Source of the DNA: Patescibacteria group bacterium
GTDB taxonomy: Bacteria; Patescibacteriota; Minisyncoccia; UBA6257; GWB1-50-10
Length of the DNA: 60,258 nt
Assembly (NCBI GenBank): GCA_023474215.1
Contig: JAMCYI010000004.1
Location: 1-60,258 of the forward strand
Reading direction: 5' to 3'
In this document: positions 15,054 through 45,253 of the stretch, one piece after another
How positions within the stretch are numbered: position 1 is the first letter of the stretch
Layout: every line of letters begins with the position of its first letter
Translations under genes and position numbers: made by a program
The notes under the pieces: generated by a model
Told to the model about the DNA's origin: nothing
Seen by the model: the letters and a program-made list of their open reading frames with translations, nothing else
The model's database searches: none

Positions 15054-15328
15054 GCCGTGGTAGCTCAGTGGTAGAGCATTCGCCTGAACTCTTCGGGCAC
15101 CGATTCAGCAATGAGCCGGAAAAAACTGGGTGAATTCGGGGAAACTTCGCAAGAACAATCCCGAGCCAAGCCCCAACAAGAAGGTTGGGGAAGGTGTAGA
15201 GACTATCCCTTCGGGGAGTACCTCGATGTAAATCGGGGGAAGCGCCCAGCTCCGCAGAAGCGGATGATGATATAGTCCAACTTCGCAGGAAGAGCGATTG
15301 GTCGGGGGTTCGATTCCCTCCCGCGGCA
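15054..15328 (+). tRNA. tRNA-Phe(GAA) split by a group I intron (exons 15054-15085 and 15289-15328)
   Basis: Joined exons: GCCGTGG TA GCTC AGTGGTA GAGC A TTCGC CT|GAA GA GCGAT TGGTC GGGGG TTCGATT CCCTC CCGCGGC A. Confidence 0.88.
15086..15288 (+). mobile_element. ORF-less group I self-splicing intron (203 nt, IC3-like)
   Basis: P AATTCGGGGAAAC, Q AATCCCGAGC, R GTAGAGACTA, S GATATAGTCC. P1 GCCU/GGGC with U.G at the 5' splice site, P10 ctcttc/gaagag, terminal omega-G. Confidence 0.88.
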
Positions 15329-16724: not shown

Positions 16725-16795
16725 CGGGGCGTAGTGTAACGGTAGCACGAGTCCTTTGGGAGGATTTAGTTCCAGTTCAAATCTGGGCGCCCCGA
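16725..16795 (+). tRNA. tRNA-Pro(TGG)
   Basis: CGGGGCG TA GTGT AACGGTA GCAC G AGTCC TT TGG GA GGATT TAGT TCCAG TTCAAAT CTGGG CGCCCCG A. Confidence 0.93.
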
Positions 16796-16819
16796 CAAAA
16801 CATATTCACCTTATCTGTG

Positions 16820-16944
16820 CCCAGATTTGAACTGGGAAGGGGTCGGGAAACCGAGAGGTTTCCCGCAGTGGAAACACTAAAACCGCAAGGTGTTAGGGAG
16901 CAAGCGTCAGCGAGCGACGTTCAACTCTGGGCGCCCCGACAAAA
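16820..16944 (+). mobile_element. tRNA-anchored miniature element (Pro copy)
   Basis: Antisense T-arm cccagatttgaactgg, core gaaggggtcgggaaac...tttcccg...aaaaccgcaaggtgttagggagc, then gcgacg and a 3' tRNA copy ttcaactctgggcgccccgacaaaa. Confidence 0.8.
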
Positions 16945-22723: not shown

Positions 22724-22852
22724 TGGAGCGGGTAAGGGGAGTGAAACCCATCGCTTCACGCAAGTGAAGCTCTTTGAAACCAAGCGGTTTCAATACTTCC
22801 GCAACGGGGAAACTCCCGTTTCCCCGACCCCCTTCTCAGGTTCGACTCCTGA
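22724..22852 (-). mobile_element. tRNA-anchored miniature element (Gly copy)
   Basis: tRNA-sense: ctcagg-agtcgaa-cctgag hairpin (antisense T-loop), gaagggggtcggggaaacgggagtttcccg core, gagc..gcgatg, then 3' copy ggtttcactccccttacccgctcca ending in CCA. Confidence 0.8.
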
Positions 22853-22863
22853 GATAGATTTTG

Positions 22864-22934
22864 AGCGGGTAAGGGGAGTCGAACCCCTCTCATCAGCTTG
22901 GAAAGCTGAGGTAATACCGATATACGATACCCGC
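22864..22934 (-). tRNA. tRNA-Gly(TCC)
   Basis: GCGGGTA acceptor, anticodon arm TCAGC TT TCC AA GCTGA, T-arm AGGGG TTCGACT CCCCT, TACCCGC T. Confidence 0.93.
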
Positions 22935-30620: not shown

Positions 30621-30660
30621 AGGAGCGGTTTCATCAAAAGAACCGCTCCTACTTTTTTAT
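30621..30660. terminator. Intrinsic terminator at convergent junction with ileS
   Basis: aggagcggtt...aaccgctcct-acttttttat. Confidence 0.7.
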
Positions 30661-33600
30661 TCCGATCCAGATCGGGTCGCCGTCGAATTTCGTCTCGATC
30701 TCGACATCGAACTTGTCGGAACGCCTAAGAAGAATGTCCGAAGCGTTTATTTCTTTCATCAGGAGCTTTTTATTGCGCTCCACAATATTTTTAACCTCGG
30801 GTTGGGCTTCGACGAGAAGCGTTATCTTGTCTTTGGGGACAAACCCGCCGTCTTGGCGAAGATCTTGGATCATGCGCACGAGCTCGCGAACCGTTCCCTC
30901 TTCTTTGAGCTCCGGCGTGATCACCGTGTCGAGGACGAAATCCTCTTTTAACTTGGAGTCGAAGGTCACTTCTTTTACATTGATTTCATCCTTTAAAATT
31001 TCGAGAAGAGCCGCATCCATCTTCGATCTCGAATCCTTGACCGCGAGCGACGCGAGGGGCTGGCGTACTTTGATCCCCAATTCCGCACGCTTTGCGAGAG
31101 CAGCACTCGCGAGATCGCGCACCGTCTTCATGCCGTGTAACAATTTCGAGTTCCGAGTTTCGAGTTTTGGGCTGGTCTTAGGCCATTCCTCCAGGTGGAC
31201 CGAGAGCTCACCCTTCAAAGAGACGGACTGATAGAGCGCATCGGCGAAGAACGGCATAAAAGGAGCAAGGAGCTTGGTAAGTTCGGTAAGACAATACCGG
31301 AGCGTCGCCGACGCCGCGGCATAATCCTTCTTGTTGTCCGGCTTTTGGAGCCGCCTCCGCGAACGGCGGATATACCACCGCGAAAGGTCGTTCACGAACT
31401 CTTCAATCGACTTGCCGGCGCCGCCGATATCATACGCATCAAGGGCTTTGGTCGAAACAGCGATGGCTTCGTCGAGGCGCGCGATGACCCACCGATCGAG
31501 AACGTTCGATTTCGCGGTCGGCGCTTTATATTTGGCGCTTTTATCGGCGTACGTCCGGTAGAAAACGTACGAGTTGTACATCATGAGGATGAACTGACGG
31601 AGCACTTTCCCGAGGTCTGCTTCGTCGAAGCGCTTCGGTTCGCCCGGCGCATTCACGGTATAAAAATACCACCGGACGGTATCGGCGCCGTATTTTTGGA
31701 TCATGTCCCACGGGCTCACGGTATTTCCCTTTGACTTCGACATCTTTTGGGCGTTCTTATCGAGCAGGAGGCCCAAGGAGATCACGTTCCGGTACGGTGC
31801 TTTTTTCTTCAAGAGCGTTGCGACGGCAAGGAGCGTATAGAACCAGCCGCGCGTTTGATCGATCCCTTCAACGATGTAATCGGCGGGATACAGAAGCTTT
31901 GTCTTGTTCTCGAAAGGATAGTGGTCTTCGGCGAAGGGCATCGATCCGGAATCGAACCAAACGTCCGCGACCTCGGGAATCCGCTTCATCGTCCCGCCGC
32001 ATGTGCATTGAAAAACGGCTTCGTCGACGTACGGCTTATGGAGATCGATCTCGCCGGTATCGTTCCGGGGGATCATTTTGAGGCTGAGCTTCCGGATTTC
32101 GGCGAACGTTATAAAATCATCGCCCCGCTTTTCTTTTTCAGCGATCGCCTCGCGCTCCGTCCACCCTTCGGCAACCTGGAAAAGCATCCAAATCGGGTAC
32201 TCGTGCGTCACGAGAAGGATGTTCTTTCCTTCATACTTCAACTCGCATTCCTTGAGGAAATTCCACAAGCGCGTCCGAAGATCGCGGACCGACTCCCCTC
32301 CTTCGGGCCGCCGCTCGAATTTCGACTGAAAGGTCGGGAAAAGCACGTGGTATTTCTCATCGTGGCAGCCCATGAGGTCCGCCCCCAATTGGATCTCTTC
32401 AAGACGCTTGTCCACCTTCGCATCCGCCGTGCCCAGGATCCCAAGATCAATCTCATCGGTTTCCTTCGTCCGCAAAATATCGGACGTGATGACGACGTCG
32501 ATCTTCTTCCCTTTCCGGGCAAGCTCGTGCTTGAACTTTTTGATCGACAATTCGACTTGCCGCTTGCCACGGGCGGTCAGGTGGAATTTCGTTTTTGTCG
32601 CATCGATGATATCAAGGACGTTGTTTTCCGCTTCGCCGTGGCGCATGACCCAATAGCTGTTCTTCGGGCGGCCGAGTTTTTTTGCGAGCTCGCCGACGCC
32701 CCCTAAGACTTCGGTCCTGCCGCATTTTTTACAGACCCAAACCGGAAGCGGCGTTCCCCAATACCGTTCGCGCGAGATCGCCCAATCCTTGACATCCTTC
32801 AGCCATTCGCCGAATCTTCCGTTTTTGATGGTCGCAGGGACCCAGTTCACCGTCTTATTCGAAGCCAAAAGCTCGCGCTTCAATTTGGACATGCCGATGA
32901 ACCACGAATCGCGCGCGTAGTAAAGGATCGGCGTGCCACATCGCCAGCAAAACGGGTATTCGTGCTCGTACTTTTCGGTCTTTAAAAGGAAATTCCGCTC
33001 CTTGAGAAGTTCGAATATCTTTTCTTCGGTTTCTTTCGCCTTCACGTACATCCCCGCAAGCTCAGGGACATCGGCGGTGAATTTCCCCAACGTATCGACG
33101 GTATGATGTTTCGGCAAGCCGACCTTCGTTCCCAATTGGTAATCGTCCTCGCCGTACATGACGGCCGTATGAACGACGCCGGTCCCGTCTTCGGTCGTCA
33201 CGAAATCGGCCGGATATACCCGATACGAGCTCTCTGTTTTCAATTTTTTGACGTCGAAGAGCGGCTCATACCGCAAGCCGACGAGATCCTTGCCACTGAA
33301 AATATTGAGTATCTGGTATTTAGTATTGAGTACTTTATCTGCCAAAAGAGAAGCGATAATGTATTTTTCATCGCTCCCTTCAATACTGACTACTGTATAC
33401 TTGATACTCTCGCCAACTGCGAGGGCGACATTTCCGGGGAGCGTCCACGGCGTCGTCGTCCATGAAAGGACATAGGTATTGCCATCGGTCGTAAAGCTTC
33501 TGCCGATCGTCTGGTTCGGCAAAAGCCTGAACTTCATGTACACCGACATATCCTCGGTCGTCTTGTACCCTTGGGCGAGCTCGTGCGACGACAAGGCCGT

Positions 33601-34161
33601 CCCGCACCGCGTGCACCACGAAATCACCTTATGCCCCTGGTAGAGGAGTTTTTTCTTGTGGACCTCGGAGAAGATCCACCACAAGGTCTCCATGTAGTTC
33701 TTGTCGTACGTGATGTACGGATGATCCATGTCGAGCCAAAAGCCGATGCGCTCAGTGATCCGTTCCCACTCGTCCTTGTATTCCCATACCGACTCGCGGC
33801 ATTTTTTATTGAACGCCGCAATGCCGTATTCTTCGATCTCTTTCTTCGATCTCAACCCGAGCTTTTTTTCAACCTCGATCTCAACCGGCAGACCGTGCGT
33901 ATCCCATCCGGCCCGGCGCGGAACGGAAAATCCGGCCATTGTCCTGTACCGGAGGACGATGTCCTTGAACGAGCGCGAGAGCACATGATGGATCCCCGGA
34001 CGGCCGTTCGCCGTGGGGGGGCCTTCATAAAAAACGAACTTCTTTTTAGCTTTGTTCTTTTTGAGCGATTTCTCGAAAATGCCGTTTTCTTTCCAGAATT
34101 TCAACACCTTCTCTTCGACTTCCGGCAGGGAGAATGCGGAATTGTCCAAATTATCAAGCAT
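30649..34161 (-). CDS. ileS: Isoleucine--tRNA ligase (type 2) with inserted histidine-phosphatase domain
   Basis: FYEGPPTANG, GWDTHGLPVE, WTTTPWTLPGN, GTGVVH, DWAISRERYWGTP, KMSKSKGN; insert with MRHGEAENN. Confidence 0.95.
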   Translation of the reverse strand: MLDNLDNSAFSLPEVEEKVLKFWKENGIFEKSLKKNKAKKKFVFYEGPPTANGRPGIHHVLSRSFKDIVLRYRTMAGFSVPRRAGWDTHGLPVEIEVEKKLGLRSKKEIEEYGIAAFNKKCRESVWEYKDEWERITERIGFWLDMDHPYITYDKNYMETLWWIFSEVHKKKLLYQGHKVISWCTRCGTALSSHELAQGYKTTEDMSVYMKFRLLPNQTIGRSFTTDGNTYVLSWTTTPWTLPGNVALAVGESIKYTVVSIEGSDEKYIIASLLADKVLNTKYQILNIFSGKDLVGLRYEPLFDVKKLKTESSYRVYPADFVTTEDGTGVVHTAVMYGEDDYQLGTKVGLPKHHTVDTLGKFTADVPELAGMYVKAKETEEKIFELLKERNFLLKTEKYEHEYPFCWRCGTPILYYARDSWFIGMSKLKRELLASNKTVNWVPATIKNGRFGEWLKDVKDWAISRERYWGTPLPVWVCKKCGRTEVLGGVGELAKKLGRPKNSYWVMRHGEAENNVLDIIDATKTKFHLTARGKRQVELSIKKFKHELARKGKKIDVVITSDILRTKETDEIDLGILGTADAKVDKRLEEIQLGADLMGCHDEKYHVLFPTFQSKFERRPEGGESVRDLRTRLWNFLKECELKYEGKNILLVTHEYPIWMLFQVAEGWTEREAIAEKEKRGDDFITFAEIRKLSLKMIPRNDTGEIDLHKPYVDEAVFQCTCGGTMKRIPEVADVWFDSGSMPFAEDHYPFENKTKLLYPADYIVEGIDQTRGWFYTLLAVATLLKKKAPYRNVISLGLLLDKNAQKMSKSKGNTVSPWDMIQKYGADTVRWYFYTVNAPGEPKRFDEADLGKVLRQFILMMYNSYVFYRTYADKSAKYKAPTAKSNVLDRWVIARLDEAIAVSTKALDAYDIGGAGKSIEEFVNDLSRWYIRRSRRRLQKPDNKKDYAAASATLRYCLTELTKLLAPFMPFFADALYQSVSLKGELSVHLEEWPKTSPKLETRNSKLLHGMKTVRDLASAALAKRAELGIKVRQPLASLAVKDSRSKMDAALLEILKDEINVKEVTFDSKLKEDFVLDTVITPELKEEGTVRELVRMIQDLRQDGGFVPKDKITLLVEAQPEVKNIVERNKKLLMKEINASDILLRRSDKFDVEIETKFDGDPIWIGIKK

Positions 34162-36609: not shown

Positions 36610-36946
36610 GGGGGCGCACGCTTCGACAGGAAAGCTCTTTGAAAGTAGCAAGCCGAGGGGCGGTAAACTCGTAAAACTGCCGCACAAAAGAACTGACAAC
36701 AACAAAGTTGCAGCCCCGGCATTGGCGTTCGCTTAATGCCGGCCCCGGTTCCATGAGAATCGGGCATCGGTCCTCTCTTCCCGCAGGAGGATAACCGGTG
36801 TCATATCGCGGGATCGCTCGCCCCAAGGGGTTCCCCATACCGGCGAGTTAAACCATCGGGAACGATTTTGCTCTCTTTTCGAGAACTAAGCTTGTAGAAT
36901 ACTCTCAAATAATTTCTTGGACGAGGGTCCAATCCCTCCGCCTCCA
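36610..36946 (+). ncRNA. ssrA: tmRNA (one-piece); tag (A)DNNKVAAPALAFA*
   Basis: 5' GGGGGCG...TTCGACAGG; 3' GGACGAGGGTCCAATCCCTCCGCCTCCA; tag ORF gac aac aac aaa gtt gca gcc ccg gca ttg gcg ttc gct taa; adjacent to smpB. Confidence 0.92.
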
Positions 36947-36986
36947 CAATCAAAAAGGCCGGCATGAATGCCGGCCTTTTTGATTG
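36947..36986 (+). terminator. Terminator of ssrA
   Basis: caatcaaaaaggccggca-tgaa-tgccggcctttttgattg. Confidence 0.8.
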
Positions 36987-36995
36987 GTTGCTGCA

Positions 36996-37024
36996 GAGCG
37001 ACTCGCGACGGTCCAATCCCTCCC
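36996..37024 (+). repeat. Partial tRNA-anchored element module with duplicated tmRNA T-arm
   Basis: gagc-gactc-gcgacg-gtccaatccctcc repeats tmRNA ggtccaatccctcc and matches the 3' module of the tRNA elements. Confidence 0.55.
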
Positions 37025-45071: not shown

Positions 45072-45180
45072 GTGCGCCCACGAGGAATTGAACGTCGCTT
45101 TGCTCCCTAACACCTTGCGGTTTTAGTATTTCCACCACGGGGAAACTCCCGTTTCCCCGACCCCCTTCCCGTTCAATTCA
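45072..45180 (-). mobile_element. tRNA-anchored miniature element (Arg-CCG copy)
   Basis: tRNA-sense: gaattgaac (antisense T-loop), gggaagggggtcggggaaacgggagtttcccc, aaaaccgcaaggtgttagggagc-aaa-gcgacg, then copy ttcaattcctcgtgggcgcac. Confidence 0.82.
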
Positions 45181-45181
45181 G

Positions 45182-45253
45182 TGCGCCCACGAGGAATTGA
45201 ACCTCGATTTTATCCTTCGGAGGGATACGCTCTATCCGTTGAGCTATGGGCGC
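45182..45253 (-). tRNA. tRNA-Arg(CCG)
   Basis: GCGCCCA TA GCTC AACGGATA GAGC G TATCC CT CCG AA GGATA AAAT CGAGG TTCAATT CCTCG TGGGCGC A. Confidence 0.95.

What the first reader, a model, noticed from the sequence alone, without database searches (positions are those of the whole stretch)
16820..16944. tRNA-tailored miniature elements: conserved core between an antisense T-loop and a sense 3' copy of each host tRNA
Seen at three different tRNAs: Pro 16820-16944, Gly 22724-22852 and Arg-CCG 45072-45180. Layout in tRNA sense: (a) a reverse-complement copy of that tRNA's own T-loop, usually as the loop of a hairpin (Pro cccag-atttgaa-ctggg; Gly ctcagg-agtcgaa-cctgag; Arg ctg-aattgaa-cgg); (b) a shared core GAAGGGG(G)TCGGG(G)AAAC...GTTTCCC; (c) an AAACCGC-aa/tt-GGT hairpin, then GAGC-N3-14-GCGAYG; (d) a direct copy of the tRNA from T-loop to acceptor end. 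The core is common while both ends track the host tRNA. Established: tyrosine integrases use the T-arm as an att core. Inference: either a non-autonomous element mobilised by a recombinase in trans that leaves direct plus inverted att cores, or a co-transcribed RNA whose anti-T-loop kisses the tRNA and affects processing. This is my top candidate for an undescribed system.
Basis: partly seen in the sequence, partly recalled or inferred. Interest (0 to 1): 0.88.

Follow-up and report, generated by a model that had tools for sequence, protein, structure and literature searches.

The report
Small tRNA-tailored mobile elements, CPR bacteria
Three ~100-base non-coding inserts just after tRNA genes belong to a large family of structured mini-elements in Patescibacteria that I could not find described anywhere; each has a conserved core flanked by an inverted and a direct copy of the sequence it landed next to, which suggests an unknown copy-and-paste mechanism.

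Summary
A covariance model of the core hits the window exactly three times (75-84 bits). Each hit lies just downstream of a tRNA (Pro, Gly, Arg-CCG) on the tRNA's strand. The tmRNA carries a deleted remnant.

The same core occurs in more than 160 loci, almost all from Patescibacteria (CPR) genomes. It has no Rfam family, no hit in 2.9 million viral contigs, and I found no paper on it.

The layout is: gene, spacer, exact reverse complement of tRNA positions 53 to about 65, conserved multi-hairpin core ending in an element-borne T-loop mimic, then an exact copy of tRNA positions about 60-73 plus a few trailer bases.

About one third of copies are not at tRNAs but follow the same grammar with arbitrary sequences. 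A second, unrelated core family uses the grammar too. Near-identical cores at different tRNAs carry different, locally matched arms, so the arms are most simply read as target-derived.

Relatives show an empty site, relics, serial insertions and tandem arrays. No recombinase or reverse transcriptase lies in the 60 kb.

Best reading: a new kind of non-autonomous mobile element that spreads through a single-stranded intermediate. The mechanism is inferred, not shown. The co-transcribed-RNA idea remains a rival.

The parts
16725..16796 (+). tRNA-Pro(UGG), intact host gene; G53 is at 16775 and the discriminator at 16795
16797..16818 (+). Spacer between tRNA-Pro and the inverted arm. Its first 4-5 bases (CAAAA, counted from 16796) recur after the downstream copy.
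16819..16835 (+). Left arm X': exact reverse complement of tRNA-Pro positions 50-66 (gcccagatttgaactgg)
16836..16918 (+). Conserved core: GAAGGGGUC junction strand, hairpin B 16844-16865, GUGGAAA junction strand, hairpin C 16877-16896, variable hairpin D 16900-16915, then GAC
   Evidence: (75 bits)
16919..16944 (+). Right arm: T-loop mimic GTTCAACT (the real T-loop is GTTCAAAT) plus an exact copy of tRNA positions 61-73 and the trailer CAAAA. It ends 3-4 nt before the gpmI stop codon.
22863..22934 (-). tRNA-Gly(UCC), intact host gene
22835..22853 (-). Left arm hairpin ctcagg-agtcgaa-cctgag. Positions 22839-22849 are the exact reverse complement of the tRNA-Gly T-loop region.
22750..22834 (-). 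Conserved core (hairpin B 22805-22826, hairpin C 22774-22793, hairpin D 22753-22770)
   Evidence: 84 bits
22723..22749 (-). Right arm: altered T-loop (GGTTTCACT; the real one is GGTTCGACT) plus an exact copy of the tRNA-Gly 3' strand, followed by CCA
45181..45253 (-). tRNA-Arg(CCG), intact host gene
45170..45179 (-). Left arm gaattgaacg, the reverse complement of the tRNA-Arg T-loop. It starts 1-2 nt after the tRNA, so there is no spacer.
45094..45169 (-). Conserved core (hairpin B 45138-45159, hairpin C 45107-45126, mini hairpin D 45097-45103)
   Evidence: 83.8 bits
45070..45093 (-). Right arm: copy of tRNA-Arg positions 53-73 plus CTG
36982..37023 (+). Relic of the same element after the tmRNA and its terminator. 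It keeps an anti-T-loop fragment (gattgg), the end of hairpin D (36996-37009) and a T-loop/3'-end copy (37010-37023). About 100 nt (left arm plus core) are deleted relative to relatives.

Best explanation
These are copies of a non-coding, non-autonomous mobile element family, about 85-150 nt long, found almost only in Patescibacteria.

What the element carries: a conserved multi-hairpin core. It begins 5' GGGAAG-GGGGUC, continues through an almost invariant hairpin CGGGGAAAC-loop-GUUUCCCCG, a G-rich junction strand UGGNGGAA, a covarying hairpin capped by AACC-GNNN-GGUU, and a variable hairpin between GAG and GAC. In tRNA-seeking lineages it ends in a T-loop-like 3' end (GUUCAAYU or GUGARA).

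What is copied from the landing site: both arms. The left arm is an inverted copy of the first 10-21 nt of the target. Its inner end is fixed at tRNA position 53 and its outer end varies. The right arm is a direct copy of the target from about position 57-61 to the end of the tRNA plus its trailer, sometimes through the terminator. The tRNA gene itself stays intact.

Proposed mechanism (inferred, not shown):
1. A single-stranded copy of the sense strand anneals by its T-loop-like 3' end, or by microhomology at other sites, to the complementary strand of a tRNA gene.
2. That 3' end is extended along the complementary strand. This makes the direct repeat and puts the element's own T-loop mimic at the junction.
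3. The displaced original strand folds back on itself and is filled in up to the branch point. This makes the inverted arm, an exact complement of the real tRNA with a fixed inner end.
4. The inverted arm is joined to the element's 5' end, which the compact core fold holds next to its 3' end.

The intermediate could be RNA, which needs a reverse transcriptase and resembles LINE/SINE target-primed copying with snap-back. It could equally be ssDNA copied by host replication and repair enzymes.
For: Shown:
- Core specificity: three hits in the window, all after tRNAs on the tRNA's strand.
Most are CPR MAGs.
- Orientation: 73 of 127 cores have a tRNA or tmRNA within 300 nt upstream on the same strand, and none on the opposite strand.
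- Structure: hairpins supported by covariation. The sense strand is more stable than the antisense in 44 of 46 copies.
- Position-wise anatomy: the left arm is the exact complement of the real tRNA; the right arm is exact from about position 60; its T-loop part follows the element's type.
- Arms tailored among close copies: near-identical cores at three different tRNAs (L214, L215/L242, L240) each carry their own locally matched arm.
- Same grammar at arbitrary non-tRNA targets, with direct repeats of 11-42 nt whose first 10-17 nt recur inverted.
- Same grammar around a second, unrelated core family.
- Turnover: empty orthologous site in L123; relic against intact copies at the tmRNA, and an older relic further downstream in L104; tandem arrays in L051, L096, L243, L073 and L103.
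- The direct repeat runs into the spacer in 10 of 59 loci, and in L007 and L116 it ends where the inverted arm begins.
- No recombinase or reverse transcriptase domain in any of the 40 window ORFs scanned. About 20 smaller ORFs were not scanned.
Against: - No free intermediate, enzyme or transcript has been observed.
- Many loci have a spacer, often a terminator, that is not detectably duplicated to the right of the element. The model needs those copies to have decayed, yet some of these cores look young.
- Positions 60-73 of the right arm stay identical to the tRNA even where spacers have diverged, and they track lineage-specific tRNA changes (L078 against L096; window against L079). That fits selection or gene conversion, meaning function, at least as well as recent insertion.
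- An RNA intermediate needs a reverse transcriptase that I did not find. An ssDNA intermediate has no known source.
- No consistent short target-site duplication was found outside the arms.
Confidence: 0.4

Rival explanations
1. A host-useful small RNA module. The core is co-transcribed behind the tRNA. Selection keeps its arms matched to that tRNA. The arms would give it a tRNA-like closing helix (T-stem and acceptor sequences) for RNase P/RNase Z-type processing, CCA addition or stability. Alternatively the left arm pairs with the tRNA's T-loop/T-stem to influence maturation or to act as a decoy.
For: - The core is extremely conserved across CPR phyla, with covarying helices.
- The sense strand folds better.
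- Right-arm positions 60-73 are kept identical to the tRNA and co-vary with it between relatives.
- The same non-random change in the T-loop copy recurs at many different tRNAs: GUGA opposite GAAC, which gives tandem G.A pairs.
- In about 10 of 75 copies the left arm reaches the acceptor end, making a full minihelix mimic.
- At the window's tmRNA relic, where the core is lost, the copy has decayed beyond position 66.
Against: - No dedicated promoter on either strand.
- In several loci I read, a terminator lies between the tRNA and the element.
- One third of copies sit at arbitrary non-tRNA sequences with the same arms.
- Distribution is patchy: 2 hits in 561 kb of CPR-rich gpmI loci, and an empty orthologous site.
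- An unrelated core uses the same grammar.
- Downstream genes are unrelated to one another.
Confidence: 0.25
2. RNA-mediated retrotransposition, a bacterial SINE. A reverse transcriptase supplied in trans copies the structured RNA at a nicked target. Template switching in the T-loop and snap-back at the RNA's 5' end create the arms.
For: - The duplicated target has variable length and the right junction varies between positions 57 and 61.
- The duplication ends either a few bases after the tRNA or at the end of the terminator. Those are the two natural RNA 3' ends.
- The inner end of the inverted arm is fixed and the outer end varies, as expected for run-off or snap-back synthesis.
- Two unrelated 'cargo' cores share the grammar, as LINE machinery mobilises different SINEs.
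Against: - No reverse transcriptase in the window ORFs scanned, and none is known to be universal in CPR (my own knowledge).
- The right arm follows the gene's trailer, not the CCA of a mature tRNA, in most cases: only 7 of 58 non-CCA genes have CCA in the copy.
- The inverted arm matches the real T-loop, not the junction's T-loop mimic, so simple snap-back on the new cDNA does not produce it.
Confidence: 0.15
3. One reading: scars or miniature derivatives of elements integrated by a tyrosine recombinase acting in trans. This includes an integron-attC-like or CTX-like folded single-strand att site formed by the two arms.
For: - A direct repeat of the tRNA 3' end with the newest copy next to the gene is the classic signature of integration into tRNA genes (established knowledge of tRNA att sites).
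- GAAC...GTTC arms around a structured centre resemble the attC inverse-core and core sites (my recollection of RYYYAAC/GTTRRRY).
- Other tRNA-Pro loci show insertions that bring whole replacement tRNAs (L124, L128).
Against: - No integrase nearby.
- No hit in viral contigs.
- Junction position varies.
- Arms are tailored even at unique non-tRNA sequences and differ among near-identical cores.
- Spacers with different terminators accompany near-identical cores.
Confidence: 0.1
4. A guide RNA gene for an unknown RNA-guided enzyme, working like IS110/IS1111 bridge or seekRNAs or a TnpB omega-RNA. The scaffold would be flanked by a segment antisense to the target and a segment sense to it, so the RNA can pair with both strands of the tRNA gene.
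For: - Conserved scaffold with variable flanks that match both strands of the adjacent target.
- A guide-like 14-20 nt sense segment lies directly 3' of the scaffold, preceded in the real target by a constant T-loop motif.
Against: - No partner gene lies nearby.
- No promoter.
- The matched sequence is a duplicated copy next to an intact target, not split flanks as in IS110.
- The scaffold is much shorter than the bridge RNAs I recalled from memory and did not resemble them; no alignment was run.
Confidence: 0.08

Closest known systems
Integrase-mediated integration into tRNA/tmRNA genes (attL/attR, displaced tRNA 3' ends, degraded remnants)
   Same: Sits at the 3' end of tRNA and tmRNA genes. 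Leaves a direct repeat of the tRNA 3' part. The host tRNA stays intact. Serial insertions put the newest copy next to the gene.
   Different: No integrase, about 100 nt, absent from viral contigs. It has an extra inverted copy of the target, a variable junction, arms also made from arbitrary non-tRNA sequences, and arms that differ among near-identical cores.
Folded single-strand recombination sites (integron attC, CTX phage attP hairpin)
   Same: Two inverted arms (…GAAC / GTTC…) around a structured, variable centre. Strand- and orientation-specific. Plausibly active as a single strand.
   Different: The attC and CTX arms are element-borne and conserved; here the arms are copied from the target. 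The multi-hairpin centre has an invariant sequence. No IntI or Xer dependence has been shown.
IS200/IS605 derivatives (PATEs), REP/RAYT elements
   Same: Small, non-coding, hairpin-rich, multi-copy and strand-specific. In IS608 an internal sequence pairs with the target.
   Different: Those insert without a long duplication, have constant ends and pair with only 4-5 nt targets. Here 11-60 nt of target is duplicated and 10-21 nt is inverted. No Y1 transposase was seen.
Non-LTR retrotransposition, SINEs and retrozymes; regeneration of the retroviral primer-binding site from the tRNA primer
   Same: A non-autonomous structured unit. Variable-length target duplication. A tRNA-complementary segment that appears to be re-copied to match the local tRNA.
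   Different: No reverse transcriptase identified, no A-tail. The inverted target copy is not a feature of SINEs. The tRNA-complementary segment covers positions 53-65 rather than the 3' terminal 18 nt.
IS110/IS1111 bridge RNA / seekRNA
   Same: An RNA-like scaffold carrying short sequences that match the top and bottom strands of the target.
   Different: No DEDD recombinase gene, no donor-binding loop identified. The flanks are duplicated target, not split target halves.
HDV-like theta ribozymes and other small ribozymes next to tRNAs
   Same: A small structured RNA-like motif immediately downstream of tRNA genes.
   Different: No match to any Rfam ribozyme model at a lax threshold. The fold I derived by eye for HDV-like and hammerhead ribozymes does not fit. 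A terminator often lies in between. tRNA-derived arms are not a feature of those ribozymes.

Membership tests
Integrase-type integrative element / att scar at a tRNA gene | Tyrosine (or serine) recombinase gene in or next to the element, or in a related full-length version | tested here: not met
   Pfam scans of 40 window ORFs found no recombinase. The core is absent from 2.9 M viral contigs.
Integrase-type integrative element / att scar at a tRNA gene | Direct repeat of the tRNA 3' segment starting at one fixed crossover position | tested here: inconclusive
   The direct repeat is present, but its start varies between positions 57 and 61 and its T-loop part follows the element's type.
MITE | Element-borne terminal inverted repeats plus a short target-site duplication of fixed length | tested here: not met
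   The inverted arms are target-specific. The duplication is 11-60 nt and variable. I found no consistent short duplication outside the arms.
Integron attC / CALIN | Conserved R''/R' boxes (RYYYAAC/GTTRRRY), a single imperfect hairpin with extrahelical bases, cassette ORFs, IntI | tested here: not met
   The arms end in YYRAAC/GTTCRA, and by inspection the fourth base differs from the recalled consensus. The centre is a multi-hairpin junction. No cassette ORFs or IntI.
IS200/IS605 PATE / REP | Constant left and right subterminal hairpins, insertion 3' of a 4-5 nt site without duplication, Y1 transposase in the genome | tested here: inconclusive
   Long duplications and variable arms argue against membership. 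Whether the genomes encode a Y1 transposase could not be tested.
IS110/IS1111 bridge or seekRNA | Encoded within an IS next to a DEDD recombinase gene; target- and donor-binding loops | tested here: not met
   No adjacent ORF of that kind in the window. The flanks are duplicated, not split, target.
Known small ribozymes (HDV-like/theta, hammerhead, twister, pistol, hatchet) and any Rfam family | Match to the family covariance model | tested here: not met
   Only tRNA reaches threshold. Nothing relevant appears at E up to 10 on the Pro element or E up to 1 on the variant cores.
SINE / non-LTR target-primed retrotransposition | Reverse transcriptase supplied in trans; an RNA intermediate | not testable with these tools
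   No reverse transcriptase in the window ORFs scanned. Whole genomes and transcriptomes were not available.
T-box-like tRNA sensor | UGGN pairing with the tRNA NCCA end, covarying with the discriminator base | tested here: not met
   The variable base in GUGGNGG shows no relation to the discriminator.

The most novel reading that the evidence does not exclude
The conserved core is itself the active agent. One version: a small catalytic or self-priming RNA/ssDNA that inserts next to T-loops using only host replication and repair enzymes, which would be a protein-free class of mobile element. The other version: a tRNA-tailored dual-strand guide for a still unknown RNA-guided enzyme common in CPR bacteria.
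Probability: 0.25. Interest if true: 0.95.

Novelty: categorically new. Interest (0 to 1): 0.85.

Why it matters
CPR/Patescibacteria make up a large share of bacterial diversity. They have tiny genomes and few recognised mobile elements. A widespread, ORF-less element whose arms appear to be rebuilt from each landing site would imply a nucleic-acid transaction not in the current catalogue of transposition and recombination mechanisms.

Three outcomes are possible, and each has consequences. If the process runs on host enzymes, it bears on how tRNA genes become hotspots for genome change. If the core is catalytic or a guide, it is a compact programmable module of about 70 nt.

If instead it is a functional RNA, it is one of the most conserved unannotated RNAs of this group, and it is tied to tRNA biology.

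Practically, these copies create pseudo-tRNA 3' ends and inverted repeats that can confuse annotation and assembly of CPR genomes.

Tried and rejected
- Known RNA families: Rfam at gathering and at lax E-values on the three types of core returned only tRNA, tmRNA and a group I intron.
- HDV-like and hammerhead folds: I tried these by hand on the core. The junction strands and helix order do not fit.
- T-box-like UGGN/discriminator pairing: no correlation.
- Cis-regulatory leader of a particular gene: downstream ORFs are unrelated to one another (PilB-like, GrpE-like, MgtC-like and others, by inspection of the translations).
- Dedicated promoter on either strand: not enriched; only L095 has a good sense promoter.
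- Retro-copy of mature tRNA: the right arm carries the gene's trailer, not CCA, in most cases.
- Short target-site duplication outside the arms: none consistent. A 9-nt repeat at the tmRNA loci L104 and L220 is the only clean case.
- Phage or plasmid origin: 0 hits in viral contigs.
- Empty allele of the window's tRNA-Pro site in metagenomes: 0 hits.
- Literature: six full-text searches, including the core sequence itself, found nothing relevant.
- G.U versus A.C counting on the model-fitted alignment to pick the strand was inconclusive because of register shifts. Folding-energy asymmetry was used instead; it may partly reflect G-richness.
- A Pfam census of the ORFs next to about 150 elements was prepared but not run, because the tool reports only the most frequent families.
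Full report
**What is in the window**

ARAGORN and Rfam find six tRNAs, a tmRNA and a group I intron. The sequence behind tRNA-Pro (16725-16796, +), tRNA-Gly (22863-22934, -) and tRNA-Arg-CCG (45181-45253, -) aligns over about 100 nt.

I built covariance model R1 from 58 short copies found elsewhere. It hits the window exactly three times: 16833-16900(+), 22770-22837(-) and 45103-45170(-), at 75-84 bits. The next credible score is below 12 bits.

Each hit is preceded by an exact reverse complement of the host tRNA's own T-loop region: 17, 11 and 10 nt. Each is followed by a copy of the tRNA's 3' part.

The tmRNA (36610-36949) is followed by its terminator and then by a remnant at 36982-37023. 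The remnant keeps only the last hairpin and the T-loop/3'-end copy.

tRNA-His, tRNA-Arg-TCT, tRNA-Leu and an intron-containing tRNA-Phe have no element.

**How widespread it is**

A 20-base gapped pattern from the core has only a handful of chance matches expected in 596 Gb, by my estimate.

By my count, 63 of the 80 listed titles are named Patescibacteria-group lineages: Saccharibacteria, Parcubacteria/Paceibacteria, Moranbacteria, Jorgensen-, Wolfe-, Nomura- and Taylorbacteria, among others. Eleven are unclassified 'bacterium' MAGs. Six carry other names (Bdellovibrionales, Bacteriovorax, Gamma- and Betaproteobacteria, Rhizomicrobium). Two of those six are not confirmed by the model.

A pattern for the window's own subtype found 46 loci, three already in hand from earlier scans, including Microgenomates and Doudnabacteria.

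The viral collection gave no hit. Rfam has no family for it at any threshold. Six literature searches, including the sequence itself, found nothing. On the sources I could search, the family is undescribed.

**Structure of the core**

The core reads 5' (G)GGAAG-GGGG(G)UC. Next comes hairpin B, CGGG(G)AAAC-loop-GUUUCCC(C)G, which is almost invariant in sequence. A G-rich strand follows, GU-GGNGG-AA, and some copies carry an extra hairpin here.

Hairpin C has a base that covaries freely and a conserved tip, AACC-GNNN-GGUU, with an A bulge or A.G mismatch. Then come RGAG, a hairpin D of very variable length, and GAC.

On 111 model-aligned copies, 93% of cells pair and 13 of 16 pairs show changes on both sides. 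This beats every shuffle and every slid control. Part of that signal in hairpin B comes from a one-base register shift; the base of hairpin C covaries clearly.

The two arms close the whole core as a further helix. A second 3' domain (…GGGGUGACC…CUAGAGGGCGGAAGCCCUAUAG…) replaces hairpins C and D in some lineages.

The tRNA-sense strand folds more stably than its complement in 44 of 46 copies, with a mean difference of -6.5 kcal/mol. So the active single strand is probably the sense strand, although G-richness contributes to this asymmetry.

**Anatomy of the arms**

I compared 58-75 tRNA-associated copies position by position.

- Left arm. It is an exact complement of the real tRNA starting at position 53. 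It extends outward for roughly a dozen nt (range 7-21) and always sits about 6 nt (GGGAAG) before the core.
- Right arm. It is essentially identical to the tRNA from position 60 to 73, with 8 and 6 mismatches in 58 at positions 60 and 61 and at most 3 at each later position. It continues 1-5 nt into the gene's trailer.
- T-loop part of the right arm. Positions 53-59 differ in 21-43 of 58 copies, and the differences are not random. GTGA(G/A)A replaces GTTC(G/A)A at many different tRNAs. That gives tandem G.A pairs opposite the left arm's GAAC.
- The same holds for the other variants. GTTCAACT or GTTCAATT(G) replaces GTTCAAAT across whole sub-lineages, whatever the host T-loop is.

The T-loop-like sequence at the right junction therefore belongs to the element. 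The left arm and positions 60-73 belong to the target.

**The arms are copied from the landing site**

Four lines of evidence point this way.

1. Arbitrary targets. Forty-one of 127 cores have no tRNA within 300 nt. These copies show the same grammar with arbitrary sequences. In L023 a 23-nt direct repeat, CACCGCAATGGGCGAAACGATAG, flanks the unit, and its first 12 nt recur inverted directly before the core. L024 (42 nt), L033 (22 nt), L113 (37 nt), L102, L009 and L091 behave alike.

2. Near-identical cores with different arms. L214, L215/L242 and L240 share even the hypervariable hairpin D (AAAATTTCGTCTGCGAAATTTT). They sit at three different tRNAs in two genomes. L214 and L240 each carry an inverted arm matching 13-14 nt of their own tRNA; L215/L242 match only 10 nt.

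3. A second core with the same grammar. Of 263 tRNA genes, 91 have an inverted copy of their own positions 53-63 within 170 nt downstream, against 3 upstream. Sixty-five of these are followed by this core. At least five exact matches, and roughly a dozen by inspection, are followed by a different core (GCCGGAGC…GAGGCG…) with the same arms. Others are followed by variants.

4. An exception that fits. In L035 the left arm matches the adjacent tRNA only in the T-loop and otherwise derives from another tRNA. This is what an occasional inherited arm, or a later rearrangement, would look like.

**Evidence for gain, loss and amplification**

The gpmI gene next to the Pro element let me fetch orthologous loci.

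- L121 (99% identity) has the same element.
- L122 (78%) has an element of a different core subtype at the same tRNA.
- L123 (70%, a closed 805-kb chromosome) keeps the order tRNA-Arg / tRNA-Pro / gpmI with only 12-13 nt between the tRNA and the gpmI stop. That is an empty site.

That same L123 genome has an intact element at its tmRNA (L220), where the window has only a relic lacking about 100 nt. L104 has an intact copy plus an older relic further downstream, so newer insertions lie next to the gene.

Tandem arrays with decayed distal units occur in L051, L096, L243, L103 and, for the second core, L073.

In a less biased sample, 80 gpmI loci covering 561 kb, only the two orthologous copies were found. 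The element is therefore patchy. The window's lineage is rich in copies: three intact plus one relic in 60 kb.

**What is not there**

Pfam scans of 40 window ORFs show ordinary CPR housekeeping genes: ClpB, HtrA, IleRS, a class I Trp/Tyr-type tRNA synthetase, RNase J, PolA, RuvB, a PilB-like ATPase, Mur enzymes, gpmI and PGM. There is no recombinase, transposase or reverse transcriptase. About 20 smaller ORFs were not scanned.

Neither strand has a consistent sigma-70-type promoter next to the element. In several loci I read, an intrinsic terminator lies between the tRNA and the left arm.

I found no consistent short target duplication outside the arms.

**Extent of the duplication**

In most copies the right arm stops 1-5 nt after the discriminator and follows the gene's trailer rather than CCA. 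Only 7 of 58 non-CCA genes have CCA in the copy.

In 10 of 59 loci with a long spacer, the spacer is also recognisably duplicated to the right. In L007 and L116 the duplication runs through the terminator and ends exactly where the inverted arm begins on the left.

**Most likely mechanism (inference)**

Any mechanism has to do several things at once:
- leave the gene intact;
- copy the target both directly and inverted;
- fix the inner end of the inverted copy at the position where the direct copy's homology to the element's 3' end begins;
- leave the outer ends variable;
- put the element's own T-loop mimic at the right junction;
- act in one orientation only;
- work for unrelated cores.

The simplest scheme I can build has four steps.

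1. A single-stranded sense copy of the core anneals by its T-loop-like 3' end to the complementary strand of a tRNA gene.
2. That end is extended along the complementary strand, producing the direct repeat.
3. The displaced original strand folds back and is filled in to the branch point, producing the exact inverted arm.
4. The inverted arm is ligated to the core's 5' end, which the compact fold holds next to the 3' end.

With an RNA intermediate this is a SINE-like, target-primed process and needs a reverse transcriptase. With ssDNA it could run on host replication and repair enzymes.

I give about 0.7 to 'mobile element with target-derived arms' and about 0.25 to this particular scheme. I report 0.4 overall.

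**Main rival**

The right arm's positions 60-73 stay identical to the tRNA even where spacers have diverged. They follow lineage-specific tRNA substitutions: L078 against L096, and window against L079, where the T-stem changes ctggg to ctcgg in the tRNA, the left arm and the right arm together. The T-loop mimic carries recurrent, structured changes.

These facts fit an RNA under selection. Such an RNA could have tRNA-like ends that are processed or recognised like a tRNA, or it could pair with its tRNA. The two readings are not exclusive, because a mobile element can depend on an RNA fold.

The integrase/att reading and the guide-RNA reading are less likely, for the reasons given under each rival.

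**Verdict**

Its architecture matches no known class of repeat, att site, ribozyme or guide RNA that I could test. The mechanism remains open.

Noticed in passing
window 15054-15328 (+): A tRNA-Phe(GAA) gene interrupted in the anticodon loop by a group I intron (Rfam hit 15076-15299, 53 bits). ARAGORN missed the gene. A terminator follows it and no mini-element.
   Followed up: partly
L003, L025, L049, L073, L077, L093, L108, L224, L243 (downstream of various tRNAs): A second, unrelated GC-rich core family (5' GCCGGAGC … GAGGCG 3') sits behind tRNAs with the same arms: an inverted T-loop copy on the left and a direct tRNA 3' copy on the right. It is sometimes in tandem arrays (L073, L025). No Rfam match.
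   Followed up: partly
L002 (~1010), L240, L243, L093: A roughly 20-nt perfect palindrome, CCTGCCTGCCGGCAGGCAGG or close variants, is inserted inside different parts of the elements or their arms. It looks like an even smaller nested mobile hairpin.
   Followed up: no
L124 and L128 (tRNA-Pro loci next to gpmI): Other kinds of insertion at the same tRNA-Pro. In L124 a complete second tRNA-Pro flanked by inverted repeats sits inside a split tRNA-Pro. In L128 a ~230-nt insert separates a tRNA-Pro from the 3' end of a different tRNA-Pro.
   Followed up: no
L012, L029/L047, L030, L043, L054, L071, L076, L084, L085, L114: A sub-family of the core lies between two similar long hairpins with conserved internal loops (…CCGCAGAAU…AUGAAUGCGG… and …CGCCUAAU…AGGACG…) instead of tRNA-derived arms. 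The reverse complement of the first hairpin also occurs in the L128 insert.
   Followed up: no
L026, L028, L031, L095, L099: A sub-family with a longer hairpin B lies directly upstream of start codons of unrelated genes. It has a conserved 3' flank, UAAC…GAUACCAC(U/A)AUG, and in L095 a good sigma-70 promoter (TTGAAA-16-TATAAT).
   Followed up: partly
window 30649-34161 (-): The isoleucyl-tRNA synthetase ORF (1170 aa) carries a histidine-phosphatase (His_Phos_1) domain inserted at residues ~504-669, in the middle of the catalytic domain.
   Followed up: no
L035 (two cores 3.7 kb apart): Two copies share an identical 60-nt left flank, and a ~75-nt inverted repeat bounds the segment between them. 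This suggests an inversion or rearrangement mediated by the elements. The left arm here derives from a tRNA other than the adjacent tRNA-Gln.
   Followed up: partly
L013, L215/L242: The terminators after the tRNA and after its downstream copy share A- and T-tracts but have completely different stems. Either the hairpin stems turn over unusually fast or the terminators have independent origins.
   Followed up: no
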